Source: Candidatus Omnitrophota bacterium
GTDB lineage: Bacteria > Omnitrophota > Gorgyraeia > Gygaellales > Profunditerraquicolaceae
Length of the DNA stretch: 64,000 bases
Direction: 5' to 3'
Assembly: GCA_003598025.1 (NCBI GenBank)
Contig: QZKH01000002.1
Coordinates: forward strand, 74,133-138,132
Shown here piece after piece: positions 7,174 through 63,602 of this stretch. A program made the position numbers and the translations under genes. The notes under the pieces are model-generated. The model was not told the origin of the DNA. It saw only the letters and a program-made list of their open reading frames with translations, and did not search any database. The first letter of the stretch is position 1. Each line of letters opens with the position of its first letter.

Positions 7174-8199
7174 ATGAACATAAATAATTTCAACCTTGAA
7201 GAGTTGGAGAAAGTGTTGCGCGAATGTGGTCAGCCTGTTTTTCGCGCCCGGCAGATTTTTGCCTGGGTACATAAGAGGAAAGTCTTTGATTTCGGAAAAA
7301 TGTCGGATATGCCGTCAAGCTTAAGAGAAAAACTCAAAAATAAATATTCTATTCAGGATTTAAGCATAAGGAACATAACACGGTCAAGAGACGGAACGCA
7401 AAAATACCTTTTTTCTTTGAATGATGCCAATCTTATTGAAGCGGTGAATATCCCTGCGGCAGGCAGGGTTACGGGATGCGTTTCTACGCAAGCCGGCTGC
7501 AGGTTTGCTTGTAAATTTTGCGCAAGCGGAATTCAGGGATTTGTCAGGAACCTGGAATGTTCTGAGATAATTGAGCAGATTCTTGTCCTTGACAGAGATG
7601 CTTCCGGCGGCCTCACTAACCTCGTTTTTATGGGCACAGGCGAGCCGTTAGATAATTACGATAATGTTATCAAGGCGGCAAGGATAATAAATTCGCAATA
7701 CAGCATTAATCTTGGCGCAAGGAAGATAACCATTTCAACTTCCGGTGTCATTGCCGGCATAGAGCGTCTCAGTAACGAAGGGCTGCAAATCGAACTATCG
7801 GTTTCTTTGCATGCTGCAGATGATAGGACAAGGTCAAGCCTGATGCCCATAAACAAGGTTTATCCTCTAAGTGATCTGATTAAAGCCTGCAGAAAATATA
7901 CCGAGAAAACTAACCGGCAGATAACTTTCGAATACATCCTTATTAAGGGCATTAATTCTACATTGCAGGATGCGCTTAATTTAGTTAAAGTATTAAAAGG
8001 GTTATCCACAATCAAGGTTAATCTTATAGTATCTAATATCGTAGAAGAATCCGGACTTGAGCCGGCGGGCCTGAAAGATGCCGCTGCTTTTAAAGGGTGC
8101 CTTATTAAACACGGCATAAACGTGACGCTGCGTAAGCCGCGCGGACAGGATATTGATGCTGCCTGTGGGCAATTGAGGTTGAGATATGGGGAAGGATAG
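7174..8199 (+). CDS. rlmN: 23S rRNA (adenine2503-C2)-methyltransferase, radical SAM
   Basis: CRFACKFCASG radical-SAM cysteine motif with the conserved RlmN N-terminus (RARQIF.W) and C-terminal region. Confidence 0.9.
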   Translation: MNINNFNLEELEKVLRECGQPVFRARQIFAWVHKRKVFDFGKMSDMPSSLREKLKNKYSIQDLSIRNITRSRDGTQKYLFSLNDANLIEAVNIPAAGRVTGCVSTQAGCRFACKFCASGIQGFVRNLECSEIIEQILVLDRDASGGLTNLVFMGTGEPLDNYDNVIKAARIINSQYSINLGARKITISTSGVIAGIERLSNEGLQIELSVSLHAADDRTRSSLMPINKVYPLSDLIKACRKYTEKTNRQITFEYILIKGINSTLQDALNLVKVLKGLSTIKVNLIVSNIVEESGLEPAGLKDAAAFKGCLIKHGINVTLRKPRGQDIDAACGQLRLRYGEG

Positions 8200-8866
8200 T
8201 TCACTGTTCATAGTTCATAGTTCATGGATTAAGGCGGCAAATTTTATCTTGGCCTTATTTTTATTCTTTGGGATCATCGGGTGTCAGAAGAGGGATATAA
8301 AGAATATTGATTCTAAGGGCACGAATATCATTTGTTTCGGGGATAGCATAACCTTTGGTTACGGCGTTGACCCGGATAAAAGCTATCCTGCGGTTTTAGC
8401 CGGCATAACGCAGTGGCAGGTCATTAACGCAGGGGTAGATGGCGATACTTCAACCGATGGCTTAAACAGGATTAACAAAGATGTTTTAGAAAAAGACCCC
8501 TTACTTGTTGTTATTGAGTTCGGCGGTAATGATTTTCTCAAGAAAATACCAAAAACGCAAACCGCTGAAAACGTAAATAAAATGATTGATCATATACATG
8601 GACGCGGCTCAATGGTAGCGTTGTTAGATATAAGTACAGGCATTTTACTTAGCGATTACCATAAGCTTTTGAAAGACATAGCATCAGAAAGAGGCGCTAT
8701 TTTTATCCCAAAGATTTTAACAGGAATAATCACTAACCCCAGTATGAAGAGCGATTTCCTGCATCCTAATGAAAATGGTTACGCTGTTATCGCCCAACGT
8801 GTTTACCGCACAATTATCCCTTACCTGAATAGGAATTTTACTTTAAAGAGCATCGCCAGCAAATAA
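8186..8866 (+). CDS. SGNH/GDSL hydrolase lipoprotein (TesA/lysophospholipase L1-like)
   Basis: GDSIT block (IICFGDSITFGYG), a GGNDF block, a C-terminal DxxH-type region and a lipobox (GIIGC). The only in-frame ATG, at 8186, overlaps the rlmN stop and the heptamer repeat array. Confidence 0.7.
   Translation: MGKDSSLFIVHSSWIKAANFILALFLFFGIIGCQKRDIKNIDSKGTNIICFGDSITFGYGVDPDKSYPAVLAGITQWQVINAGVDGDTSTDGLNRINKDVLEKDPLLVVIEFGGNDFLKKIPKTQTAENVNKMIDHIHGRGSMVALLDISTGILLSDYHKLLKDIASERGAIFIPKILTGIITNPSMKSDFLHPNENGYAVIAQRVYRTIIPYLNRNFTLKSIASK
8198..8227. repeat. tandem heptamer array (TTCACTG TTCATAG TTCATAG TTCATGG) belonging to the dispersed GTTCATA/TATGAAC family
   Basis: Read directly in the sequence. 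Four 7-nt units at the rlmN/SGNH junction. Confidence 0.85.
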
Positions 8867-11690: not shown

Positions 11691-11742
11691 TTCTGCTACG
11701 CCCTAAGTAGGCTCAAGTAGGTAGGGCTTCGCAGCAATATAA

Positions 11743-11825
11743 TGCCGAGAGAGGGAGTTGAACCCTCACGAGGTTGCCCTCACCAGTTTTTGAGACTGGC
11801 GTGTATGCCATTCCACCACCTCGGC
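11743..11825 (-). tRNA. tRNA-Leu (anticodon CAA), class II with a long variable arm
   Basis: The reverse complement folds as a cloverleaf. Acceptor is GCCGAGG/CTCTCGGC. The anticodon stem CCAGT/ACTGG carries loop CTCAAAA. There is a long variable arm, a GAGGG-TTCAACT-CCCTC T-arm and discriminator A. Confidence 0.8.
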
Positions 11826-11946
11826 ATAAGTAGATTTGTTTTGAGGTAAGAATATTTACCAGGAAATGCTAGCTACGGCATTTGCTGATTTGCCTTACTT
11901 TTAGCTACAGCAAATCAATCCTGGGGCCTTTTAGCCCGAAGGATTT

Positions 11947-12270
11947 GGACCGTTTTACGCTCGTTTAGTGCCACTTCAAATTTTCCTTGTCGGAAAATAG
12001 TTATGTGGTGGCGCCGCACTCGCTGCCTCACTTGTCGCTCGGCTACGCTCGTTGCGGCATCCACCAATTTTTTCCTTACCGGAAAATTAAAATCCAAGGC
12101 ACTGAACTCGCTACGGTCCTTGTCGGACCGTTTTACGCTCGTTTAGTGCCACTTCAAATTTTCCTTGTCGGAAAATTAAAATCCAAGGCACTGAACTCAC
12201 TACGGTCCTTGTCGGACCGTTTTACGCTCGTTTAGTGCCACTTCAAATTTTCCTTGTCGGAAAATTTGAA
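11947..12270. repeat. 89-bp tandem repeat of about 3.6 units, each carrying two perfect hairpins that share a CCTTGTCGG core; it fills the spacer between tRNA-Ala and tRNA-Leu
   Basis: Units begin at 11947, about 12036 (diverged), 12125 and 12214. They contain GGTCC-TTGTC-GGACC and TTTTCC-TTGTC-GGAAAA hairpins. The last unit abuts the tRNA-Ala 3-prime end. Confidence 0.8.
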
Positions 12271-12271
12271 G

Positions 12272-12344
<73 letters not shown>

Positions 12345-12408
12345 ATTATTATATTTTGCGTTCGTCCCGAGCTACCTTCTCTTGTCTTATGTACCGAGGA
12401 GCAGCCCC

Positions 12409-12522
12409 ATATTTAAAATTTAAAGCTCAGTATACACTCCCAGTCCCGACGCTCATTTGCATTCGGTCGGGATGCCGACTTCACGTATTTTGTGAACGTC
12501 GGCACTGAGCTACAGCCCCATA
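12409..12522 (-). other. structured leader or pseudo-tRNA element upstream of tRNA-Ala that duplicates the tRNA-Ala 5-prime end
   Basis: CTGAGCTACAGCCCCAT (12506-12522) exactly repeats the tRNA 5-prime end at 12330-12346, and a third partial copy, GCAGCCCCATAT, lies at 12409-12420. A long-range AGCTCAGT/ACTGAGCT stem encloses two hairpins. Confidence 0.4.
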
Positions 12523-12544: not shown

Positions 12545-12573
12545 AATATAACATTCGGCTATAGCATTGTCAA
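12545..12573 (-). promoter_or_regulatory. sigma70-like promoter driving the minus-strand leader, tRNA-Ala, repeats and tRNA-Leu unit
   Basis: On the minus strand there is TTGACA (-35), a 17-bp spacer and TATATT (-10). It lies 18 bp downstream, in the minus sense, of the left heptamer array. Confidence 0.5.
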
Positions 12574-12594
12574 TACCTTCTGGCTGCCAAACAA

Positions 12595-12690
12595 GTTCAT
12601 GGTTGATAGTTCAAGGTTCATGGACTATGTTAGCGCTTATAGCTATTAAGATTATCTATGAACTATGAACCATGAACAATGAACTATAAA
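12595..12690. repeat. inverted pair of heptamer arrays (GTTCATG GTTGATA GTTCAAG GTTCATG ... CTATGAA CTATGAA CCATGAA CAATGAA CTATAAA) serving divergent promoters
   Basis: Read directly in the sequence. Left array 12595-12622, right array 12656-12690, with a 33-bp spacer. Confidence 0.85.
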
Positions 12691-12701
12691 CCAAGTAGCC
12701 C

Positions 12702-12730
12702 TTGACGCTCCTTACCCCCTGGGGTATAAT
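12702..12730 (+). promoter_or_regulatory. sigma70-like promoter for nfo
   Basis: TTGACG (12702-12707), a 17-bp spacer and TATAAT (12725-12730). The heptamer array ends 11 bp upstream of the -35 box. Confidence 0.6.
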
Positions 12731-12740
12731 GGGTGAAATT

Positions 12741-13583
12741 ATGATATTAGGGGTCCATGTTTCTGCAGCAGGCAATATTTATGATTCGCTTGAGCGTGCC
12801 TATGGGTTAGGCTGTAATACTATGCAGATATTTTCGCGCAATCCTCAAAGATGGCGCGATAATTTTTTAGGGGAGCACGATTTCGATGAATTTCGTAAGG
12901 CTAAGCAAAAATTTAAAATAAACCCCGTCTTTATCCATATACCTTATTTGATAAACCTGGCTTCTCCTGAGCCGGGGCTTTACCGGGCTTCAATCCGCGC
13001 ATATATTGAAGATATTGTTGAAGCAGATAAACTAGGCGCTGATTTTATCGTAACGCATATGGGCAGCCATAAGAAAACATCTGAAAGCCTCGGGATTAAA
13101 AGATTGACGGCTGCCCTGAATAAAATTGCCTTAGCAACAAAAGATTCCAAAGTCGGGATCCTGCTTGAAAATACATCCGGTTCCGGAAGCTGGCTGGGTT
13201 ATGATTTTACGCACCACAAGCGGGTTTTTGATAATTTGAAGGACAGGCAGCGTTTCGGCATATGCCTTGATACCGCCCATGCTTTTTCTGCGGGATATGA
13301 TATATCGAACAAGCCGGGGCTGGATGCGATGCTTGGGGAAATAGACAGGCTGGTTGGTTTAGGTTTGATCAGGTTGATACATCTGAATGACTCAGCTTCA
13401 AGACTTGGGCAGCACTTTGATAAGCACCAGCATATAGGGAAAGGCTATATCGGCATCCCGGGTATGAAAAATATCATTAACCATAAAGGGCTTAAAGATA
13501 AGCCCTTTATATTAGAAACCCCCAAAGAGTATCAATCTTCCGATATTGATAACTTGGAAACAGTGAGGAAACTGAGAAAATGA
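12741..13583 (+). CDS. nfo: endonuclease IV (AP endonuclease family 2, xylose-isomerase-like TIM barrel)
   Basis: N-terminus MILGVHVSAAG, with metal-ligand His/Asp/Glu blocks (HIPYLINL, HMGSH, HLND). The ORF-track start at 12702 lies inside the promoter, so I use the ATG at 12741. Confidence 0.85.
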   Translation: MILGVHVSAAGNIYDSLERAYGLGCNTMQIFSRNPQRWRDNFLGEHDFDEFRKAKQKFKINPVFIHIPYLINLASPEPGLYRASIRAYIEDIVEADKLGADFIVTHMGSHKKTSESLGIKRLTAALNKIALATKDSKVGILLENTSGSGSWLGYDFTHHKRVFDNLKDRQRFGICLDTAHAFSAGYDISNKPGLDAMLGEIDRLVGLGLIRLIHLNDSASRLGQHFDKHQHIGKGYIGIPGMKNIINHKGLKDKPFILETPKEYQSSDIDNLETVRKLRK

Positions 13584-13988: not shown

Positions 13989-16406
13989 ATGGAATATGAT
14001 TTTAAGGAAATAGAGAAGAAGTGGCAGGGATATTGGGATAAGAGCGGTCTATACCGCGCTGAATATTCTCCGGGCAATAAGAAATATTATTTGCTTGAGA
14101 TGTTCCCTTATCCTTCGGGCAAGATACATATGGGCCATGTAAGGAATTATGCCATTGCCGACGTTGCCGCAAGGTTTAAGTTGATGCAGGGTTATAATGT
14201 CCTGCATCCGATGGGTTTTGACGCTTTTGGCCAGCCTGCAGAAAACGCTGCAATCAAGAACAAAACCAAGCCCGATGCCTGGACCCATAAATGCATAGAC
14301 TGGATGCGCGTTGAGCTTAAGAAGATGGGTTTTTCTTATGATTGGGCAAGGGAGGTATCTACCTGCGACAGCACTTATTATAAGTGGAACCAATGGATAT
14401 TCCTTAAAATGTTTGAGAAGGGCCTTGCTTACAAGAAAGCCTCGAATGTAAACTGGTGCCCGAACTGCGAAACCACACTTGCTAATGAAGAAGTGATAAG
14501 TGAAGAGTGCTGGAGATGCCATAGCAAAGTTGAGCAGCGTAAACTTGACCAGTGGTTTTTAAAGATCACCGGATATAAAGAACGGCTGCTTGAAGATCTG
14601 GGAAAGCTTAAAAATTGGCCGGAGCGCGTTATTGCAATGCAGTCTAACTGGATCGGCAGGAGCCAGGGCGTGGAGATTTATTTTAAAATTAAAGGCAATG
14701 ATGATATCACGATACCGGTTTTTACCACCCGTGTAGATACTATATTCGGCGCCAGCTACGTAGTTTTAGCACCGGAGCATCCTTTGGTCGAGGATATTAT
14801 AAAAGGCATAGCACATGAGCCAGAGATCAGGAAGTTTATCAATAAGGTAAAGAAAGAAAAAAAGAACATACTCTCCAAAGAAGATGTTAAAAAAGAGGGT
14901 ATTTTCAGCGGCCGTTATTGTATCAACCCGGTGAATAATGAAACTATCCCTGTTTGGATCGGTGATTATGTTTTAATGGAGTATGGCACAGGCGCGATTA
15001 TGGCAGTGCCGGCTCATGACCAGAGGGATTTTCTTTTTGCTAAAGAACATGGGTTACCTATGAGAATAGTTATAAACAGTCCACAGTCCACAGTCCACAG
15101 TCCACAGGAATTGACTGAAGCGTATGAGGGGGATGGTTTCCAGGTTAATTCTGGGCAATTTGATGGATTGGATAACCAAAAGGCAAAGTCCGAGATTGCA
15201 AAGTGGATGGAGGCAAAAGGGATAGGCAAAATCCAGACACACTGGAGGCTGCGCGATTGGCTTATATCAAGACAGCGATATTGGGGTACACCTATACCGG
15301 TTATATATTGTGAAAAATGCGGGATCGTGCCTGTCCCATATCATGACCTGCCTGTTGAATTGCCGGCTGATGCCCCTTTTACCGGTGAGGGTGGCAGCCC
15401 CTTGGCAAAAGTGAAAAAATTTGTAAATGTCAAATGCCCTAAATGCAATGGCTCTGCCAGGCGCGAAACAGATACCATGGCTACTTTTTTTGACTCGTCG
15501 TGGTATTTCCTGAGATTCTGTTCCCCTTCTTTTAATGAGGCGCCTTTTGATAAGCAGGAGGCTAGATATTGGATGCCAGTTGACCAGTATATCGGGGGAA
15601 TAGAGCACGCTATTTTACATTTACTCTATTCACGCTTTTTTACTAAATTTTTCAAAGACCTGGGGATGGTGGAATTTGACGAGCCGTTTACATGCCTGCT
15701 TACACAGGGGATGGTCCTTAAAGAAGGCGAAGTAATGTCAAAGTCAAAAGGTAATATAGTTGACCCAGATTCGATTATAAAGAAATACGGTGCAGATGCC
15801 CTGCGGCTTTTTATACTTTTTGCCGCGCCTCCGGAAACTGAACTGGAGTGGGATGACAGGGGGATTGAGGGAGCATCCAAGTTCTTAAACAGGGTATGGC
15901 GCCTGCAGGATAACCTAAGGGATGGCCCGGCAGATAAATCAGGAGGGCTGGCCACCGCAAAAATACTGCATAAAACAGTTAAGAAAGTAACTGATGATAT
16001 AAATCAGTTTAAATTTAATACCGCGATTGCCAGTTTAATGGAGCTGACAAATGTTTTATATCAGTCCGGGGCAGATAAAGAGGATTATTCTACGTTAGTT
16101 GTGTTGCTGGCCCCGATAGCCCCGCATTTTGCAGAGCAAATTTGGGAGAATTTAGGGAACAAAGAATCTGTATTTAAGGCAAAATGGCCGCAGTATAACC
16201 CGGATTATCTTTTTGATTCTGTTGTTGATATAGTAGTCCAGGTAAATGGTAAGCTGCGCTCTAAGCTCGCAGTCCCGTTTGATGTTAGAGAAGAAGAGTT
16301 AAAAGAATTAGTCTTGCGTGATCAGAAGGTACAACCCTGGATTAGCGGTAAGAATATCAGAAGTTTTATATTCGTGCCCAACAAACTTGTCAACATCGTA
16401 GTCTGA
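13989..16406 (+). CDS. leuS: leucyl-tRNA synthetase
   Basis: HMGH motif ([12 protein letters not shown]) and KMSKS motif (VMSKSKGN). 805 aa with a LeuRS-type CP1/editing insertion. Confidence 0.95.
15077..15107. repeat. 7-nt tandem repeat (CAGTCCA, 4.4 copies) inside the leuS coding sequence
   Basis: Read directly in the sequence. It encodes [10 protein letters not shown] in a variable loop of LeuRS. Confidence 0.85.
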
Positions 16407-16789: not shown

Positions 16790-16839
16790 TAAATAATTAT
16801 ACCTAAAATATCTGGCGAATGCAAAGAAAAGGATATTTG

Positions 16840-16936
16840 GTTCATAGTTCATAGATCATGGTTCATAGATAATTTATGCTGACGCTTACATTTATCCATG
16901 CTAAGACAACCAACCATGAACCATGCTCTATGAACC
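16840..16936. repeat. inverted pair of heptamer arrays (GTTCATA GTTCATA GATCATG GTTCATA ... CCATGAA CCATGCT CTATGAA) in the divergent intergenic region between the receiver gene and comEA
   Basis: Read directly in the sequence. Arrays at 16840-16867 and 16915-16936. Confidence 0.85.
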
Positions 16937-16989
16937 AATCCCTGTTAGAAATAACATCTGTATGCGTCTTATATCAGGAGGGCAAAAAT

Positions 16990-18695: not shown

Positions 18696-18710
18696 CCTGC
18701 TATCCGTAAC

Positions 18711-18731
18711 TATGAACTATGGACCATGAAC
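18711..18731. repeat. heptamer array (TATGAAC TATGGAC CATGAAC) upstream of the TPR lipoprotein promoter
   Basis: Read directly in the sequence. A TTGACA at 18756-18761 follows 24 bp later. Confidence 0.8.
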
Positions 18732-18792
18732 AAACCTACTTTGCCTACTTAGCAATTGACAAACATTCTGCTCTATGTTACTTTAATTTAAT

Positions 18793-19743
18793 ATGAAAAA
18801 GGCTTTTTTCTTTATTATAACCATTTCTGTTCTTGCTGTTTTCTTACCGCAGGATGCAGGCGCTTATTGGATTTGGACCCCCAAAACCGGTAAATGGGTC
18901 AATCCAAAGAACCAGGTCAAGGGCACGCCGCAAGAGCAGTTCAAACTTGCTAAAGACCTATATGATTCAGGGCAGTTAGCCGAGGCAGACAGGGAGTTTA
19001 AAAAGCTTATAAAAAGATACCCTAAAGCTTTTGAGGCTTCAGAAAGCCAGTATTACCTGGGTTTAATAGAAGAAAAACAGGGGAATCTTTACGAAGCCTT
19101 CACCGCCTACCAAAAGGTCATTGATAAGTACCCTTTTTCTGAAAGGATACAGGAGATAATTGAGAAGGAATATAAGATAGGCGAAGAGTTTATGTCAGGG
19201 TACAAGCGTAAAGGGCTTGGTGCCACTTTTGCGGTTGAAAACCCGGCAATAGAGATTTTTACAAAAGTAGTTGAAAACTCTACATACGGGCCGTTGGCAG
19301 CCAAAGCGCAATATAAACTGGGTTTGGTGCTTAAAGGGCTTATGCGTTATTATGATGCCGAGGAAGCATTTGATAAAGTCATTAATAATTACCCTGACAG
19401 CGAATGGGTCGAGGCCGCCAAATTCCAGATTGCAGAATGCCGGGCAAGCCTTTCCCGCGGGCCGGACTATGATTTAGGGGCTGCCAAGGATGCCAAGGAC
19501 AGGTTTGAAGACTTTTTAATGGAGCATCCCGATGCGGAATTATCCAGGGAAGCTGAAAAGAATATCCAGGAGCTTAACGAAAAAGAGGCAGAAAGTAGTT
19601 ATAATATAGCTTTCTTTTATGAGAAGCAGAGGGACTTTAAGCCAGCCATGATTTATTATCAGGATATAATTGAAAAATACCCAAATAGTATTTGGGCGGC
19701 AAAGGCTTTAGAGAGAATGAGGGTATTGGAAAGGAAGAAATGA
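18793..19743 (+). CDS. TPR-repeat outer-membrane lipoprotein (BamD/YbgF-like)
   Basis: Signal peptide followed by multiple TPR-like repeats (YYLGL..., YKLGLVL...). Its position next to lptE fits an outer-membrane biogenesis role. Confidence 0.45.
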   Translation: MKKAFFFIITISVLAVFLPQDAGAYWIWTPKTGKWVNPKNQVKGTPQEQFKLAKDLYDSGQLAEADREFKKLIKRYPKAFEASESQYYLGLIEEKQGNLYEAFTAYQKVIDKYPFSERIQEIIEKEYKIGEEFMSGYKRKGLGATFAVENPAIEIFTKVVENSTYGPLAAKAQYKLGLVLKGLMRYYDAEEAFDKVINNYPDSEWVEAAKFQIAECRASLSRGPDYDLGAAKDAKDRFEDFLMEHPDAELSREAEKNIQELNEKEAESSYNIAFFYEKQRDFKPAMIYYQDIIEKYPNSIWAAKALERMRVLERKK

Positions 19744-33587: not shown

Positions 33588-33697
33588 ATAGTAATTATAA
33601 TTGCAGATTCAGGCTAATTCAATAAATATTACTTTTAGTCCGCGGTGCACGGAGCACAGTTCACTGAGCGTAGTTTATAGAAGTATGACCCACATAT

Positions 33698-33711
33698 CCT
33701 CTGTGAACTAT
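33698..33711. repeat. short heptamer array (GTGAACT ATGAACC) upstream of the promoter of gene 33816, with a degenerate inverted copy at 33658-33680
   Basis: Read directly in the sequence. TTGAAC (33730-33735), a 17-bp spacer and TAGAAT follow. Confidence 0.6.
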
Positions 33712-33815
33712 GAACCAATGTACTGCTTATTGAACTCATACTTTTTCCATGATAGAATACAATACAATGAGCAAAAATATTTATTGAGCCACTGATAGAA
33801 TAACTGGAGGTAGCT

Positions 33816-58341: not shown

Positions 58342-58737
58342 ATGAAATTATTAACCAGAGATACGGATTATGCGGTAAGGGCGCTTTGTTTTATAGCAAG
58401 AATGGATAATAAAGTTGTTCCTGTTCCGGAATTAGTCAGGGAGCTTGATGTCCCCAGGCCATTTTTGAGGAAGATCCTGCAGATACTGCACAAAAAGGGT
58501 ATTTTGTATTCTTTTAAAGGTAAAGGAGGCGGATTCTCTTTGGCAAAACCTCCAGATAAGATATTAATTACCGATTTAATAAAGATATTTCAGAATTCTC
58601 TTAAATTAAATGAGTGCATACTGAAAAAAAGAATATGCCCTAATAAGGGCGCCTGTTCTCTAAGGCGTAAGATCGATGGTATTGAAAAGATTGTTGCTAA
58701 GGAGCTAAGTTCTATAACTGTAAAGTCATTAATCTAG
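58342..58737 (+). CDS. Rrf2-family transcriptional regulator (NsrR/IscR-like, three Cys)
   Basis: Rrf2 HTH (DYAVRALCFIAR...) and C-terminal Cys residues (CILKKRICPNKGAC). Confidence 0.8.
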   Translation: MKLLTRDTDYAVRALCFIARMDNKVVPVPELVRELDVPRPFLRKILQILHKKGILYSFKGKGGGFSLAKPPDKILITDLIKIFQNSLKLNECILKKRICPNKGACSLRRKIDGIEKIVAKELSSITVKSLI

Positions 58738-58752
58738 AAAAGGAGTTAAGAA

Positions 58753-60432
58753 ATGAGTAATAAAATGTTTTGCTATCAATGTGAGGAGACTGTAAACGGC
58801 AAAGGATGCACAATCGAAGGCATCTGCGGGAAAACCCATGTAGTAGCTAATTTACAGGACCTTCTTATTTATCTTGCTAAAGGTATATCTGTATATGCAA
58901 ATAAGGCAAGGGAATTAGGCGTAAACAATGCAGAGGTAGACTTATTTGTAATTGAATCGCTGTTTTCGACTGTCACAAACGTTAATTTTGACCAAGATAG
59001 AATGATTGAATTGATAAAAAAAGCGTTCTATTACAGGGATGATATAAAGAATATGTTTTTCGGGGCATATAAAGCTAAGAACGCAAACAAAGGCTTTGAA
59101 GGGAAGCTCCCGGATGCTTGTATCTGGCATTGGGATGGCAGCGTAGACAGCCTTTACACAAAGGCAATAAGCGTAAGTATATTATCTGAGGCCAATGAAG
59201 ATATACGTTCATTAAGAGAATTATTAGTTTACGGGCTTAAAGGGATAGCTGCATATGCAGACCATGCATATATATTAGGTAAAGAAGATAACGATATACT
59301 GGCTTTTGTCGAAGAGGGGCTTGCTGCTACGCTTGATAATACCTTAGGGGCCCAGGAGCTAGTCGGCTTAGTTATGAAAGCCGGTGAATATGCAGTTAAA
59401 ACAATGGCACTTTTAGATAACGCTAATACGTCTGCCTATGGTAATCCTGAAATAACCCAGGTATTTACCGGCACTAAAGAAGGCCCGGCGATACTTGTTA
59501 GCGGACATGATCTGTTGGATTTGGAAGAGATACTTAAACAGACGCAAGGAACCGGTATAAATGTTTATACTCATGGTGAGATGTTGCCTGCAAATGCATA
59601 TCCGAAATTAAAGAAGTATAGCAATCTTGTAGGTAATTACGGTACTTCCTGGTATAACCAGCAAAAAGAATTCGAGGCATTTAACGGGGCTATAGTAATG
59701 ACTACCAATTGCCTCCAGAGGCCAAAAGATTCTTACAGAGACAGGATGTTTACCACAGGCTTAGTCGCATGGCCGCAAGTCCAGCATATTAAGGACAGGG
59801 TAGGCAGCGCTCAAAAAGATTTTTCTGCTGTAATTGAGAAGGCGCTTGCCCTGGGTGGCCTTGAAGAAACCCCAGGTAAATATATTACAATCGGTTTTGC
59901 CCACGTATCTGCTATCAAAGTCGCAGCAAAGATAGTAGATGCTGTTAAATCAGGGAGTATAAAGAGATTTGTGGTAATGGCTGGTTGTGACGGAAGGCAC
60001 AAGGAGAGGAATTATTTCAGTGAGGTAGCAAGGCAACTTCCGGAAGATGCGGTGATATTGACCGCAGGATGCGCCAAATACAGATATAATATGCTGGATC
60101 TCGGAGATATAGGGGGAATACCCAGAGTTATAGACGCCGGCCAGTGCAATGATTCCTATTCTCTGGTTGTGATCGCCCAGGAGCTGGCAAAGGTATTCAA
60201 AGTTAAAGATATAAATGAACTGCCGGTTTCGTTTGATATAGCATGGTATGAACAAAAGGCAGTATGCGTGCTTTTAGCTTTGTTATATCTTGGAGTAAAA
60301 AATATAAGGCTGGGACCGAACCTGCCAGCTTTCATTTCTCCTGCTGTTTTAAAGGTGCTGGTTGAGAAATTCGATATTAAGCCCATCAGTACTCCGGAAA
60401 AAGATATAGAAGCTATGCTGGCGGCTAAATAA
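58753..60432 (+). CDS. hcp: hybrid-cluster protein (hydroxylamine reductase)
   Basis: N-terminal MFCYQCEETVNGKGCT...GICGK cubane-cluster motif and conserved hybrid-cluster ligands. Confidence 0.9.
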   Translation: MSNKMFCYQCEETVNGKGCTIEGICGKTHVVANLQDLLIYLAKGISVYANKARELGVNNAEVDLFVIESLFSTVTNVNFDQDRMIELIKKAFYYRDDIKNMFFGAYKAKNANKGFEGKLPDACIWHWDGSVDSLYTKAISVSILSEANEDIRSLRELLVYGLKGIAAYADHAYILGKEDNDILAFVEEGLAATLDNTLGAQELVGLVMKAGEYAVKTMALLDNANTSAYGNPEITQVFTGTKEGPAILVSGHDLLDLEEILKQTQGTGINVYTHGEMLPANAYPKLKKYSNLVGNYGTSWYNQQKEFEAFNGAIVMTTNCLQRPKDSYRDRMFTTGLVAWPQVQHIKDRVGSAQKDFSAVIEKALALGGLEETPGKYITIGFAHVSAIKVAAKIVDAVKSGSIKRFVVMAGCDGRHKERNYFSEVARQLPEDAVILTAGCAKYRYNMLDLGDIGGIPRVIDAGQCNDSYSLVVIAQELAKVFKVKDINELPVSFDIAWYEQKAVCVLLALLYLGVKNIRLGPNLPAFISPAVLKVLVEKFDIKPISTPEKDIEAMLAAK

Positions 60433-60447
60433 AATACGGGGGAAACT

Positions 60448-61284
60448 ATGCAGAAAAGGAAAATAATAAAAATTGATGAAAATAAATGTACTGGGTGCGG
60501 CCTGTGCATACCGAATTGCCCTGAGGGCGCTATACAGATAATTGATGGTAAGGCGCGCCTCATAAGCGATTTGTTTTGTGACGGTTTAGGCGCATGTATC
60601 GGCCATTGCCCCGAGGGAGCTATAACTATAGAGGAGAGGGAAGCCCAGGCCTACGACGAGGATAAAGTGATGGAAAATATCGTAAAGCAAGGCCCGAATG
60701 TAATAAAAGCCCACCTCCATCATTTAAAAGCTCATGGCGAGGTAAATTATTATAACCAGGCTTTGGCTTTCTTGAAGGAACACAACATCAATATCCCTGT
60801 AGATAAGAAATGCGGCCCCGCTGGCCACGGGCCATCTGGTTGTCCTGGCTCAAGGATGATGGATTTGCGCAAAAAGAAAAAAACAGAACACGATGTAAGC
60901 TCTGCGGCAAAGCAGGAGTCTGAACTTGGCCAGTGGCCGGTGCAGCTTATGCTTGTGCCCAGCTATGCGCCTTATTTGAATAATTGCGATCTTCTGATAG
61001 CTGCCGATTGCGTTCCTTTTGCTTATGCTGATTTTCATCGCGACCTTTTGAAAGGCAAAACTTTGCTCGTGGGCTGCCCCAAACTTGACGATGTTTCAAT
61101 ATATCAGAATAAACTGGAACAGGTTTTTGCCAATAACGATATAAAATCAGTTACTTATGCCCATATGGAAGTGCCTTGCTGTTTTGGTTTGGTTAATATA
61201 ATACAATCGGCGATAGAGAAATCAGGTAAAGCAATACCTTTTAAAGAAGCTGTCATAAGTATAAGCGGAGAGAGGCTAAGATGA
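60448..61284 (+). CDS. 2x[4Fe-4S] ferredoxin-domain protein with a C-terminal Cys-containing domain of unclear function
   Basis: CTGCGLCIPNCP and CDGLGACIGHCP. The C-terminal half has further cysteines, but I cannot place it in a family. Confidence 0.55.
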   Translation: MQKRKIIKIDENKCTGCGLCIPNCPEGAIQIIDGKARLISDLFCDGLGACIGHCPEGAITIEEREAQAYDEDKVMENIVKQGPNVIKAHLHHLKAHGEVNYYNQALAFLKEHNINIPVDKKCGPAGHGPSGCPGSRMMDLRKKKKTEHDVSSAAKQESELGQWPVQLMLVPSYAPYLNNCDLLIAADCVPFAYADFHRDLLKGKTLLVGCPKLDDVSIYQNKLEQVFANNDIKSVTYAHMEVPCCFGLVNIIQSAIEKSGKAIPFKEAVISISGERLR

Positions 61285-62024
61285 TGCTTGGGTGTCCTGG
61301 TTCAGGGCCGTTCAAGCAGCCAAAGCCCGAAGACCTAAAGTGTTCCAGGTGTAATGCTGAAATTGAGATCTGGAGCGATGAAGCCAAGGCTAAATGCCCG
61401 TCTTGCGGAAATATTGTATTACGCAAATTTTCCGGAAACACATGCCTTGACTGGTGTAAAGAAGCCCGTTTCTGCGTCGGAGATAAAGTTTATAAAAATT
61501 ATATTCAGGGCAAGGCAGCATCCTTAAAACAGGGGATAGTCGAAGAGATGGAGCGTTATTTCGGAGATGATACAAAGAGGATAAGGCACGCAAGGAATGT
61601 TATGGGATTTGCTGAAATGATCCTCAAGGAACATAAAGCAGATTGGCATATCGTTATACCCGCTAGCCTATTGCATGATATAGGGATTAAGCGGGCTCAG
61701 GAGAAATACGGCTCAACCTCGGGGCATTACCAGGAGATAGAAGGGCCTGCAATCGCAGAGGCCATACTTAATAAATTGGGGGTCAAAAAAAGCGATATTG
61801 ATGAAATTTGCCAGATTATTGCACATCATCATTCCCCGGGCATAGTTAATACTGAGAATTTTAAAGTCTTATATGATGCTGATTGGCTGGTAAATTTAAA
61901 AGACGAGTATGATATTAAAGACAGGCAAAAACTGATCCGGATTATCGATAGGGTATTTCTGACGGAAACAGGCAAAAGGTTAGCCAACGATACTTACGTT
62001 AACTTAAAAAGGAGTAATCTATGA
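61281..62024 (+). CDS. HD-domain phosphohydrolase with an N-terminal zinc-ribbon
   Basis: CSRC...CPSCG ribbon. HD motifs H...HD...H (RHARNV, LLHDIG, AHHH). Confidence 0.65.
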
Positions 62025-62242
62025 AAGAAAAAGTTTTAGATGTTTTGACAAAAATCCGGCCTATGCTTCAGGCTGACGGAGGGGATGTGGAGTTGGTTGA
62101 GGTTACGCCGGAAAATGTCGTTAAGGTCAGGCTTAAAGGTGCATGCGGAAGCTGTCCCATGAGCCAGATGACTTTAAAAATGGGGGTTGAGAGGCTGTTA
62201 AAAAAGGAAATCCCTGAGATTAAAGAAGTAGTGGCGGTATAG
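62021..62242 (+). CDS. NifU-like (Nfu) Fe-S cluster carrier domain protein
   Basis: GACGSCPMS CxxC motif in the Nfu fold. Confidence 0.7.
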
Positions 62243-62302
62243 TAAATTTATCCCAGGCGGTTAGTTAGCCGTATTAAATAAATAGTGTTTTTAAATAACC
62301 TT

Positions 62303-62344
62303 CCATGAACCACGAACTATGAACTATGAACTATGAACTATGAA
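62303..62344. repeat. heptamer array, six units (CCATGAA CCACGAA then CTATGAA four times), upstream of the flavodiiron gene promoter
   Basis: Read directly in the sequence. TTGACT (62362-62367) and TATAAT (62384-62389) follow. Confidence 0.9.
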
Positions 62345-62414
62345 CTAATATGCTATACCCTTTGACTATTATCAGCCCGCTGTTATAATGGGACAGGATA
62401 GGCGGAGGTGTAAT

Positions 62415-63602
62415 ATGAAGACAGAGATAGCAAAGAATATTTATTCGGTAGGGGTGCTTGATTGGAATATGCGTTCTTTTCACGGGCACACTTATTCAAC
62501 AAGCAGGGGCACGACTTATAATTCTTATCTTATAATCGATGATAAAGTTACCCTTGTAGACGGGGTCTTAGGTTCATTTTCAGGGGAACTGATTAATAAC
62601 ATAAGCGAGATTGTTTCGCCTGAGAAAATAGACTACATTATTGTAAATCACCTTGAAGCTGACCATACGGGGGCATTACCCGAGGTGATTAAGATTTGTC
62701 CTAACGCAAGAATATTTTGCTCCCAGAAATGTAAAGAAGGATTATATAAGCATTATTATGAAAATTGGAATTTTAATGTCGTAAAAACCGGGGATATCCT
62801 TAAGCTGGGAGAAAAAACACTGTCTTTTATCGAGGCCCCCATGATCCATTGGCCGGATAGCATGTTTACATATTGCCGGCAGGACGCCCTGCTTATGCCT
62901 AACGATGCATTCGGACAGCACTATGCAACCAGCCAAAGATTTGATGATCAGGTTGACCAATGCGAACTTATGGATGAAGCTGTAAAATATTACTCAAATA
63001 TTCTTTGGCCGTTGAGTGCAATAATCTCCAAGAAAATAGAGGAGATTGAGAAAATGGATATCCCGATTAAGACAATTGCTCCTAGCCACGGGATAGTATG
63101 GCGTAGGGACCCAGCCAAAATAATAAATGCTTATAAAAAATGGTCTAAAAATGAATCAGAGCCCAAGGTTGTAATCATCTATGAGACTATGTGGGGCTCA
63201 ACTGAGAAAATGGCAAGGGCCATATCGCAGGGGCTTATGGATTCAGGTGTTAAGGTCAAGATTTTCGATGTTGCAGTCTCTGACAGGACGGAGATGACAA
63301 AAGAAATGATGGAGAGCCGGGGCTATTTGTTTGGTTCTTCCACGCATGATAATGATATGCTCCCGACAATGGCGGGATTCATGGAATTCGTAAAGGGCCT
63401 GAAGCCTAAGAACAGGCTGGTTTCAGTTTTTGGTTCTTATGGCTGGGCAGGAGGCGCGGTAAAAGAGATTGAAGGAGTTATAAAAGAGACAGGCCTGAAT
63501 ATAAACCAACCTTCTTTATCAATCCAATATGTACCTGATAACAAGGCTTTAAAAGACTGCTACAATTTTGGCGTAAATTTCAGCAAGCTGGTCAAGTTTT
63601 AA
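62415..63602 (+). CDS. flavodiiron protein (metallo-beta-lactamase plus flavodoxin; FprA/NorV-like without a rubredoxin domain)
   Basis: HxExDH di-iron motif (HLEADHTG) and the flavodoxin signature in the C-terminal half. GGAGGTG RBS precedes the ATG at 62415. Confidence 0.85.
   Translation: MKTEIAKNIYSVGVLDWNMRSFHGHTYSTSRGTTYNSYLIIDDKVTLVDGVLGSFSGELINNISEIVSPEKIDYIIVNHLEADHTGALPEVIKICPNARIFCSQKCKEGLYKHYYENWNFNVVKTGDILKLGEKTLSFIEAPMIHWPDSMFTYCRQDALLMPNDAFGQHYATSQRFDDQVDQCELMDEAVKYYSNILWPLSAIISKKIEEIEKMDIPIKTIAPSHGIVWRRDPAKIINAYKKWSKNESEPKVVIIYETMWGSTEKMARAISQGLMDSGVKVKIFDVAVSDRTEMTKEMMESRGYLFGSSTHDNDMLPTMAGFMEFVKGLKPKNRLVSVFGSYGWAGGAVKEIEGVIKETGLNINQPSLSIQYVPDNKALKDCYNFGVNFSKLVKF

What the first reader, a model, noticed from the sequence alone, without database searches (positions are those of the whole stretch)
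12595..12690. Inverted heptamer arrays bracket a divergent promoter pair feeding nfo and a minus-strand tRNA/ncRNA unit
The left array (GTTCATG-type, 12595-12622) lies 21 bp from a minus-strand -35 TTGACA. The right array (CTATGAA-type, 12656-12690) lies 11 bp from the plus-strand -35 TTGACG of nfo. Each promoter therefore gets an array in the same relative orientation. This mirrors the comEA/receiver locus at 16840-16936 and is the cleanest evidence that the heptamer array is a directional promoter-proximal module.
Basis: seen in the sequence. Interest (0 to 1): 0.6.

Follow-up and report, generated by a model that had tools for sequence, protein, structure and literature searches.

The report
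Dispersed heptamer-repeat element beside two promoters
The two inverted 7-base repeat arrays are real, but they are the two arms of one copy of a scattered repeat family found in many bacteria, lodged next to two promoters and not shown to be a part that those promoters need.

Summary
(RGTTCAT)x4 at 12594-12622 and (ATGAACY)x5 at 12658-12692 lie 21 bp and 9-11 bp upstream of two near-consensus divergent sigma-70 promoters, one for nfo and one for a minus-strand tRNA/ncRNA unit. The unit is massively over-represented: 19 hits against 0.13 expected.

The window (Candidatus Omnitrophota) holds at least 8 such arrays. Five of the 8 have a promoter-like site 5-25 bp ahead in the pointing direction; random placement gives 0.37.

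The "directional promoter module" reading is only partly supported:
- The nfo promoter is conserved in relatives that have no arrays.
- Array-adjacent genes are functionally unrelated.
- A relative carries the same unit inside a pre-tRNA leader, an operon spacer and a signal-peptide coding region.
- In 120 loci from many phyla the same unit forms about 4-unit arrays that are 165/166 intergenic and unbiased towards genes.
- Paired arrays there are always GTTCAT...ATGAAC (23:0), in divergent, co-directional and convergent gaps alike.

This matches the published Xanthomonas and Nostoc heptamer families: modal 4 units, fixed-polarity inverted pairs, no known function. Across this Omnitrophota clade, four-copy 7-8-nt arrays also sit in frame inside leuS and a lipase signal peptide.

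Best reading: a member of a dispersed heptanucleotide-repeat family whose promoter adjacency is incidental or at most modulatory.

The parts
12594..12622 (-). Left arm: four heptads. They read ATGAACC TTGAACT ATCAACC ATGAACT on the minus strand, pointing at the minus-strand promoter.
12623..12657 (.). Spacer between the arms. About 60 % identical to the spacer of the second module at 16871-16911 (shared TATGyTrrCGCTTAyA core). Not itself a significant hairpin (z = 0.06).
12658..12692 (+). Right arm: five heptads ATGAACT ATGAACC ATGAACA ATGAACT ATAAACC, pointing at the nfo promoter.
12702..12730 (+). nfo promoter TTGACG-17-TATAAT. Conserved in relatives that lack the arrays.
12741..13583 (+). 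nfo (endonuclease IV). The conserved ATG lies 10 nt after the -10, so the leader is very short or absent.
12545..12573 (-). Minus-strand promoter TTGACA-17-TATATT for the tRNA/ncRNA unit.
12345..12519 (-). Structured leader with two pieces that start like tRNA-Ala (GGGGCUG...). Folds with z = -3.95. No Rfam match.
12271..12344 (-). tRNA-Ala(GGC).
11947..12266 (-). 89-nt tandem repeat (3.6 copies) of paired hairpins with GACAA loops, between tRNA-Ala and tRNA-Leu.
11742..11826 (-). tRNA-Leu(CAA).
16839..16870 (-). Family copy: left arm of the second paired module, 14 bp upstream of the receiver-gene promoter (16825-16796).
16912..16937 (+). Family copy: right arm of the second module, facing comEA. 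No scan-level promoter ahead of it.
18708..18732 (+). Family copy: solo array in the comEC-bamD gap.
33703..33716 (+). Family copy: two heptads 13 bp upstream of TTGAAC-17-TAGAAT (adenosine kinase gene). A possible decayed partner arm lies at 33658-33678.
62305..62347 (+). Family copy: six heptads 15 bp upstream of TTGACT-16-TATAAT (flavodiiron protein gene).
8196..8225 (-). Family copy in the opposite orientation. Starts at the rlmN stop codon and is translated in frame as part of the GDSL-lipase signal peptide. An orthologous array is present in L246, L274 and L302.

Best explanation
The two arrays are the two arms of one copy of a dispersed heptanucleotide tandem-repeat element. The unit is ATGAACY, with about four units per arm, and the arms are always arranged GTTCATR...spacer...YATGAAC. 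It belongs to the same kind of element as the cyanobacterial STRR sequences and the Xanthomonas GGGAATC and Nostoc GGGGAYT families.

Shown:
- The family has at least 8 copies in 64 kb here.
- It recurs in a related Omnitrophota genome.
- With the same unit, the same modal length of 4 units and the same arm polarity, it occurs in Bacteroidota, Cyanobacteria, Planctomycetota and other phyla.
- It is almost entirely confined to DNA where sequence is unconstrained: intergenic DNA, RNA leaders, and signal-peptide or loop codons.
- The adjoining nfo promoter exists unchanged in relatives that have no array.

Inferred:
- The arrays arise through a replication- or repair-type amplification that produces about four copies (roughly 30 bp) of a 7-8-nt unit.
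- A palindromic partner arm is made or inherited together with the first arm.
- Copies persist only at permissive sites. In this compact genome those are chiefly the stretches just upstream of -35 elements.
- Each arm therefore 'points' at its promoter because of the element's fixed symmetry, not because promoters recruit it.

Any effect on transcription is secondary and untested. Possible effects are displacement of upstream DNA, cruciform extrusion between divergent promoters, or weak protein binding.
For: - Enrichment and family size in the window.
- The nfo promoter is conserved without arrays in L121 and L125, and in L246 a terminator rather than an array lies next to it.
- Same-family arrays in L246 lie in non-promoter contexts.
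- Pairs always have '-+' polarity (23:0), in all types of intergenic gap.
- The modal length is 4 units for the real unit. Composition-matched control heptamers have a mode of 3.
- No protein family recurs next to the arrays.
- Array-adjacent genes are unrelated in function.
- Census of the clade over 775 kb: period 7 is the commonest tandem period (91 arrays), with a mode of 4 copies. Arrays occupy the leuS loop in 22 of 23 lineages, the lipase signal peptide, and the pre-tRNA-Ala leader, with lineage-specific units.
- Published precedent with the same anatomy and no function found: PMC4692102.
Against: - Within this window the arrays are closer to promoter-like sites, and better oriented towards them, than random intergenic placement allows (5 of 8 against 0.37). 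All three paired modules lie in divergent gaps.
- In five further lineages the left arm of a leader module lies 6-14 bp upstream of the -35 of the tRNA-Leu promoter.
- The strict 23:0 polarity and the reuse of one unit across phyla are not explained by simple local slippage. They hint at a sequence-specific factor or a mobile origin.
- No mechanism that writes about four copies is known.
Confidence: 0.55

Rival explanations
1. Directional cis-regulatory module. Contiguous heptads upstream of -35 are an operator or activator platform for a protein that binds one heptad per dimer and polymerises along the DNA. This is how the omega repressor of pSM19035 works on WATCACW heptads (my own knowledge). 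The protein would co-regulate about a tenth of the promoters.
For: Arrays end 9-21 bp upstream of five scan-level promoters and point at them. Pairs occupy the divergent gaps. Positions 1-6 of the unit are well kept, with C6 invariant in 34 units, while position 7 is Y. The arms do not co-vary, which fits reading as duplex DNA rather than as a hairpin. L053, from another phylum, shows an array 10 bp upstream of TTGACA-17-TACATT.
Against: The orthologous nfo promoter works without arrays. The target genes are unrelated. The distance to -35 is not fixed (9, 13, 14, 15 and 21 bp). Three of the 8 arrays have no promoter ahead of them. Same-unit arrays in L246 lie in a leader, an operon spacer and coding DNA. 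In other phyla there is no orientation or promoter bias. Pfam scans of about 58 of the window's ORFs found no ribbon-helix-helix or other candidate protein, only Fur, DtxR and Rrf2 regulators.
Confidence: 0.2
2. Hairpin- or cruciform-forming palindromic element that acts through structure, in the manner of REP/BIME elements. It would serve as an insulator or supercoil sink between divergent promoters, or as an RNA stem-loop when transcribed.
For: The modules fold as long imperfect hairpins (z = -4.7 to -8.1). At the pre-tRNA-Ala leader site, different lineages carry pairs built from different units, yet the two arms are always reverse complements of each other. Lineages without arrays have a plain stem-loop at the same place. 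In L087 the arms flank a bidirectional terminator.
Against: Within the ATGAACY family, cognate arms are no more complementary than arms taken from different genomes (0.843 vs 0.842, P = 0.38). Seventh-base variants are not mirrored between arms. The window module lies upstream of both promoters, so neither promoter transcribes it. Solo arrays are common. Either arm polarity would give an equally good hairpin, yet only one polarity occurs.
Confidence: 0.15
3. Phase-variable simple-sequence contingency locus. Gain or loss of units by slippage would tune promoter strength, as the 7-bp repeats upstream of Haemophilus influenzae hmw1A do (PMC8262952, PMC12721329, listed).
For: The array is heptanucleotide, tandem and close to a promoter. 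The array at 62319-62347 has four perfect units.
Against: The arrays at this locus are short and imperfect (2 mismatched units of 4, and 1 of 5). All non-coding arrays of at least 3.5 copies in the clade are imperfect. The flanking genes are housekeeping genes, not surface or virulence genes. The arrays lie upstream of -35, where unit number does not change promoter geometry. Copy number clusters at 4 instead of varying widely.
Confidence: 0.05

Closest known systems
GGGAATC repeats of Xanthomonas and GGGGA(C/T)T repeats of Nostoc PCC 7120 (Rehm et al. 2015, PMC4692102)
   Same: Tandem heptamers with about 180 dispersed copies per genome, 89-93 % of them intergenic. Most arrays have four units. 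Many occur as nearby inverted pairs with one fixed relative orientation. Neighbouring genes fall in random functional classes, and no function was found.
   Different: Those units are G-rich, and their preference for four units was attributed to G-quadruplex formation. ATGAACY cannot form a quadruplex yet shows the same mode of four. The Xanthomonas arrays lie closer to the upstream gene and are under-represented between divergent genes. Here the pairs sit between divergent promoters.
Cyanobacterial STRR (short tandemly repeated repetitive) heptanucleotide sequences (Mazel et al. 1990; my own knowledge, cited as ref. 39 in PMC4692102)
   Same: Dispersed intergenic tandem heptamers. In the scan, ATGAACY arrays are themselves abundant in Nostocaceae, Symploca and Coleofasciculus genomes and abut other heptamer arrays.
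   Different: The host here is an Omnitrophota bacterium with no HIP1 sites. The classical STRR units are different sequences.
Omega-repressor heptad operators of inc18 plasmids such as pSM19035 (my own knowledge)
   Same: Contiguous 7-bp units with no spacing, in direct and inverted orientation, just upstream of several promoters.
   Different: The unit sequence differs (WATCACW). Those operators are on a plasmid, in a partition and copy-control setting, with a known ribbon-helix-helix protein. No such protein was found here, and the arrays are not needed for the orthologous promoter.
REP/BIME/REPIN extragenic palindromes with RAYT transposases (my own knowledge)
   Same: Dispersed, extragenic, inverted doublets with fixed polarity. 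Genome-specific abundance.
   Different: Each REP is itself a hairpin, whereas here each arm is a direct tandem array. No transposase-like gene recurs next to the arrays. The arms do not co-vary.
Heptanucleotide repeats upstream of H. influenzae hmw1A/hmw2A (PMC8262952, PMC12721329)
   Same: 7-bp tandem repeats near a promoter.
   Different: Those repeats are long, perfect, strain-variable tracts between the promoter and the gene of a surface adhesin. Here the arrays are short, imperfect and upstream of -35 of housekeeping genes.
SARP-binding heptameric direct repeats in Streptomyces (PMC5930380, listed)
   Same: Heptamer direct repeats adjoining or overlapping the -35 of target promoters.
   Different: The SARP heptamers recur every 11 bp, on one face of the helix. 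Here the period is 7 bp with no spacer.

Membership tests
Dispersed bacterial heptanucleotide tandem-repeat families (STRR; Xanthomonas GGGAATC; Nostoc GGGGAYT) | Tandem repeat with a 7-nt unit | tested here: met
   TRF finds period 7 with 3.4-6.1 copies at seven sites. The unit register is shown.
Dispersed bacterial heptanucleotide tandem-repeat families (STRR; Xanthomonas GGGAATC; Nostoc GGGGAYT) | Many dispersed copies of one unit in a genome, far above chance | tested here: met
   At least 8 arrays in 64 kb; 19 two-unit hits against 0.13 expected.
Dispersed bacterial heptanucleotide tandem-repeat families (STRR; Xanthomonas GGGAATC; Nostoc GGGGAYT) | Strong bias to non-coding DNA | tested here: met
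   Seven of 8 window arrays are intergenic. 165 of 166 arrays in the 120 genome loci are intergenic.
Dispersed bacterial heptanucleotide tandem-repeat families (STRR; Xanthomonas GGGAATC; Nostoc GGGGAYT) | Modal array length of four units | tested here: met
   Four units in 76 arrays against 40 with three units (genome loci), and 25 against 13 (viral contigs). Control units have a mode of three. The window arms have 4, 5, 4, 3-4, 3, 2, 6 and 4 units.
Dispersed bacterial heptanucleotide tandem-repeat families (STRR; Xanthomonas GGGAATC; Nostoc GGGGAYT) | Frequent nearby inverted pairs with one fixed relative orientation | tested here: met
   23 pairs are GTTCAT...ATGAAC and none has the other polarity. 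The window holds 2 clear pairs and 1 decayed pair.
Dispersed bacterial heptanucleotide tandem-repeat families (STRR; Xanthomonas GGGAATC; Nostoc GGGGAYT) | G-tracts able to form a G-quadruplex (the Xanthomonas/Nostoc subtype only) | tested here: not met
   The unit ATGAACY has a single G. The element is therefore not a member of the G4 subtype, only of the wider class.
Omega-type heptad operators (inc18 plasmids) | Contiguous heptads, direct or inverted, upstream of the regulated promoters | tested here: met
Omega-type heptad operators (inc18 plasmids) | Heptad consensus WATCACW | tested here: not met
   The unit is (Y)ATGAAC.
Omega-type heptad operators (inc18 plasmids) | Cognate ribbon-helix-helix protein encoded in the system | tested here: inconclusive
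   Pfam scans of about 58 of the window's ORFs found no RHH domain. The rest of the genome could not be reached.
Phase-variable SSR contingency loci | Long perfect tract | tested here: not met
   The tracts have 4-5 units with 1-2 mismatched units.
Phase-variable SSR contingency loci | Unit-number polymorphism between strains or reads | not testable with these tools
   The source genome is not retrievable: exact-protein look-ups failed and the metagenome scan with the nfo promoter 30-mer gave 0 hits.
REP/BIME/REPIN | Each repeat is itself an imperfect palindrome, and the family is linked to a RAYT transposase | tested here: not met
   The arms are direct tandem arrays. No protein family recurs near the arrays.
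UP element | A+T-rich tract at -40 to -60 matching the alpha-CTD consensus | tested here: not met
   The 9-21 bp next to -35 are not A/T tracts (for example AAGTAGCCC), and the heptads carry G and C in every unit. The comparison with the consensus rests on my own knowledge.
SARP heptamer repeats | Heptamers recurring at 11-bp intervals | tested here: not met
   The period is 7 bp with no spacer.

The most novel reading that the evidence does not exclude
ATGAACY arrays, and the wider class of four-copy 7-8-nt micro-arrays, could be the product or the target of a dedicated, phylogenetically widespread machinery that has not been described. One form would be a sequence-specific protein or domesticated transposase that recognises four contiguous heptads and copies the palindromic module, as a REP/RAYT-like system with 7-bp periodic arms. 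Another would be a repair polymerase that writes about 30 nt of reiterated 7-8-mer in one step and keeps the copies identical. That would explain three things together: the 23:0 arm polarity across phyla, the mode of four units without any G-quadruplex, and the concerted evolution of a four-copy array inside the essential leuS gene in 22 of 23 lineages.
Probability: 0.2. Interest if true: 0.8.

Novelty: new member of a known kind. Interest (0 to 1): 0.5.

Why it matters
Heptamer tandem repeats have been reported as over-represented among simple sequence repeats in many bacterial genomes, but they remain unexplained (PMC4692102). This case adds three things.

First, it documents such a family in Omnitrophota, a phylum with no isolate.

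Second, an A+T-rich unit that cannot form a quadruplex shows the same four-unit mode and the same fixed-polarity inverted pairs. That undercuts the G-quadruplex explanation given for the Xanthomonas and Nostoc families and points to a common generating or recognising mechanism.

Third, the same clade keeps four-copy 7-8-nt arrays in frame inside an essential gene and inside signal peptides. The position is conserved while the unit changes in concert. This gives a natural system for studying how such arrays are made and homogenised.

For annotation, it is a warning: a striking repeat next to a strong promoter need not be a regulatory site.

Tried and rejected
- Chance. Rejected.
- Known RNA family. 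Rfam gives only the two tRNAs at gathering score; the permissive search adds only sub-threshold matches, a partial tmRNA-model match over tRNA-Ala and weak microRNA/plastid chance hits.
- Retrieving the source genome or other strains. Exact-protein look-ups for Nfo (two alternative starts) and LeuS were not on record. The metagenome scan with the nfo promoter 30-mer gave 0 hits. Copy-number polymorphism and a whole-genome census were therefore impossible.
- 'Cross-phylum presence means a universal function.' Weakened by controls: composition-matched heptamers AGTAACY and ATCAAGY give 38 and 29 viral loci against 50 for the real unit. Only the four-unit mode and the arm polarity set the real unit apart.
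- Insertion next to hairpins. Spacers between the arms are mostly not significant hairpins (median z = -0.55).
- Arm co-variation. Two tests were negative.
- A fixed 28-bp sequence. Seventh-base patterns vary (TTTT 21, CCCC 12, TCTT 11).
- A linked transposase or other gene. None recurs.
- Promoter association in other phyla. Absent for the sigma-70 scan; 15 vs 9 for the Bacteroidota -7 motif, which I judge unconvincing (no test was run).
- LexA (GAAC-N4-GTTC), Fur, FNR, IHF, NarL, Spo0A and CtsR motifs. I compared these by eye from memory and none fits a 7-bp direct repeat. They were not formally tested.
- Literature search by sequence string. It returned only unrelated primer matches.

Full report
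**Observation**

The sequence is as described. GTTCATG GTTGATA GTTCAAG GTTCATG lies at 12595-12622. CT ATGAACT ATGAACC ATGAACA ATGAACT ATAAACC lies at 12656-12692. The two arrays are in inverted orientation around a 33-36 bp spacer. The consensus scan finds two strong divergent sigma-70-type sites:
- TTGACA-17-TATATT on the minus strand (12573-12545, 11/12 matches);
- TTGACG-17-TATAAT on the plus strand (12702-12730, 11/12 matches).

These lie 21 bp and 9-11 bp from the arrays. The two-unit pattern ATGAACYATGAAC, with at most one mismatch, occurs 19 times in the window against 0.13 in shuffles.

**Local anatomy**

On the plus side is nfo. The closest database protein is 100 % identical and named deoxyribonuclease IV of a Candidatus Omnitrophota MAG. 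A receiver gene and leuS follow it.

The minus-side promoter drives a unit made of:
- a structured leader that twice starts like tRNA-Ala;
- tRNA-Ala(GGC);
- 3.6 copies of an 89-nt double-hairpin repeat;
- tRNA-Leu(CAA).

Several genes have their ATG 6-12 nt after the -10, so leaders are very short.

**The family in the window**

Arrays of the same unit lie at 8196-8225, 16839-16870, 16912-16937, 18708-18732, 33703-33716 and 62305-62347. In 34 units, positions 1-6 are well kept, C6 is invariant, and position 7 is C or T.
- Five of the 8 arrays have a scan-level promoter 5-25 bp ahead in the pointing direction, and none do when flipped.
- Random placement in intergenic DNA gives a mean of 0.37, and no simulation of 5000 reached 5.
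- The three paired modules all sit in divergent gaps.
- Downstream genes are unrelated in function: endonuclease IV, tRNAs, an orphan receiver, ComEA, BamD, adenosine kinase, a flavodiiron protein and a GDSL lipase.

**Relatives**

The nearest Nfo homologues other than the source itself are only about 67 % identical. Syntenic loci L121, L125, L246, L247 and L248 were fetched.

The block CCTTGACGCT..CTGGGGTATAAT..ATGAT(A/T)TTAGGGGT is conserved in L121 and L125, but nothing upstream of -35 is, and neither has ATGAACY arrays. The arrays are therefore not part of the promoter.

L246 is the closest relative found by LeuS (75.6 % identity), and it does carry the family. Its arrays lie:
- as four heptads 25 nt upstream of a start codon inside an operon spacer;
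- as four heptads in the lipase signal-peptide codons, the same site and orientation as window 8196-8225;
- as a (GTTCGTA)4...(ACGAACY)4 pair inserted between a conserved promoter and tRNA-Ala, that is, in the pre-tRNA leader.

**Other phyla**

The hits come from Cyanobacteria, Bacteroidota, Planctomycetota, Verrucomicrobiota, Poribacteria, Methylomirabilota, Acidobacteriota and others. Controls show that mere presence is not special: composition-matched heptamers give 38 and 29 viral loci against 50 for the real unit.

Three properties do set the real unit apart:
- 165 of 166 arrays are intergenic;
- the modal length is four units, whereas controls peak at three;
- whenever two arrays of opposite strand lie within 200 bp, the order is always GTTCATR...YATGAAC, 23 cases to 0.

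Of the 16 pairs with a called gene on both sides, 5 are divergent (6 counting the window's tRNA unit, which the ORF call missed), 7-8 co-directional and 3 convergent. The polarity therefore belongs to the element, not to promoters. Further results:
- Orientation towards gene starts is unbiased in Bacteroidota (34 vs 35) and in the other phyla (16 vs 14).
- Promoter-like sites are not enriched ahead of the arrays.
- No protein family recurs next to them.
- Cognate arms are no more complementary than arms from different genomes.
- The spacers are mostly not hairpins.

**The clade**

The conserved overlapping tRNA-Leu/tRNA-Ala promoter served as a probe and retrieved 103 related metagenome loci. 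Over 775 kb:
- Period 7 is the commonest tandem period (91 arrays; period 6 has 9, period 8 has 49).
- The mode is four copies.
- About half of the 7-8-nt arrays lie in frame inside ORFs.
- All 21 perfect arrays of at least 3.5 copies are in coding DNA.

The leuS loop between RIVI and EAYEG is built from a four-copy 7- or 8-mer in 22 of 23 distinct lineages. The units are related but lineage-specific, and the window has (AGTCCAC)4 at 15076-15107.

The lipase signal peptide carries four to five copies of different units in different lineages.

The pre-tRNA-Ala leader carries inverted pairs of many different units. The two arms are always complementary. Other lineages have a plain stem-loop there, or no insert at all.

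**Literature**

Rehm et al. (PMC4692102) describe GGGAATC repeats in Xanthomonas and GGGGAYT repeats in Nostoc. There are about 180 per genome, 89-93 % intergenic, and most have four units. 70-75 pairs per genome are inverted with one fixed orientation. Gene classes are random and no function was found. They linked the preference for four units to G-quadruplexes.

The present A+T-rich unit shows the same anatomy without that possibility. The omega heptads, REP/RAYT elements, UP elements and STRR are compared from my own knowledge. The hmw1A repeats and the SARP heptamers are cited.

**Interpretation**

The finding is one copy of a dispersed heptanucleotide-repeat element. Its position next to two promoters is real and, in this window, non-random. 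But the evidence favours persistence at permissive sites plus an intrinsic palindromic symmetry over a dedicated directional promoter module (confidence 0.55).

The rivals are:
- a heptad-binding regulator (0.2);
- a structural hairpin or cruciform role (0.15);
- phase variation (0.05).

The fixed polarity, the four-copy rule, and concerted evolution inside leuS remain unexplained. They are the reason the score is not lower.

Noticed in passing
window 15076-15107 (leuS); also L121 10715-10746, L125 4052-4086, L246 11934-11966, L247 11927-11959, L248 12311-12341: A perfect four-copy 7-nt array, (AGTCCAC)4, sits in frame in a surface loop of the essential leuS gene. In 22 of 23 distinct lineages of the clade, the loop between RIVI and EAYEG has its best periodicity at 7 or 8. 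The units are related but lineage-specific. The repeat structure is conserved while the peptide is not, which is concerted evolution of a micro-array.
   Followed up: partly
window 8196-8225; L246 8846-8873; L274 2107-2138; L247 4841-4875; L345 1464-1536: The first codons of the GDSL-lipase signal peptide, right after the rlmN stop, carry a four- to five-copy 7/8-mer array in many lineages. The units differ: GTTCATR, ATTGGTT, GTCACAAA plus TCTTGTGC, and GTCACAC. L121 has only a single GTTCAT there.
   Followed up: partly
clade loci L249-L351 plus the window (775 kb): Period 7 is the commonest tandem-repeat period, with a mode of four copies. All 21 perfect arrays of at least 3.5 copies lie in coding DNA, and none lies in non-coding DNA.
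   Followed up: partly
window 11947-12266 (-): An 89-nt tandem repeat (3.6 copies) lies between tRNA-Ala and tRNA-Leu. Each unit folds into two hairpins with identical GACAA loops (z = -8.25), and there is no Rfam match. A related single piece (..AAGCGAGCGTAGCGAGGCGACAAGCCGAGCAGCGAG..) follows tRNA-Ala in L246 9850-9900.
   Followed up: partly
window 12345-12519 (-); L286 and L278 leaders: The transcript upstream of tRNA-Ala contains two elements that begin like the tRNA-Ala acceptor strand (GGGGCUGUAGCUCAG..., GGGGCUGCUCCUCGG...). L286 has 3-4 tandem copies of a similar ~65-nt GGGGCTGCCCCTCG...CTCGGGA element in the same place.
   Followed up: no
L121 6768-6806, L125, L246 9626-9666, L247 6018-6056, and 103 metagenome loci: A highly conserved pair of overlapping divergent promoters (TTGACG-N17-TAAAAT on one strand, TTGACC-N17-TAAAAT on the other) lies between tRNA-Leu(CAA) and tRNA-Ala(GGC) across the clade. 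The window has lost this arrangement: both of its tRNAs are on the minus strand.
   Followed up: partly
window 12730-12741, 16796-16789, 33594-33585, 18784-18793: Start codons lie only 6-12 nt after the predicted -10 hexamers of several genes (nfo, receiver, cation-efflux gene, bamD). This suggests leaderless or near-leaderless mRNAs are common in this organism. The NCBI start of Nfo (284 aa) is probably four codons too early.
   Followed up: no
window 12623-12657 versus 16871-16911: The spacers of the two paired modules share about 60 % identity, including a TATGyTrrCGCTTAyA core. Both inner array ends carry ATTATCT next to the first heptad, which hints that whole modules are copied.
   Followed up: partly
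window 58342-63602: A cluster of an Rrf2-family regulator, hybrid-cluster protein (Prismane), ferredoxin, HD-domain protein and flavodiiron protein looks like a nitrosative or oxidative-stress unit. The longest ATGAACY array (six units) sits upstream of its last gene.
   Followed up: no
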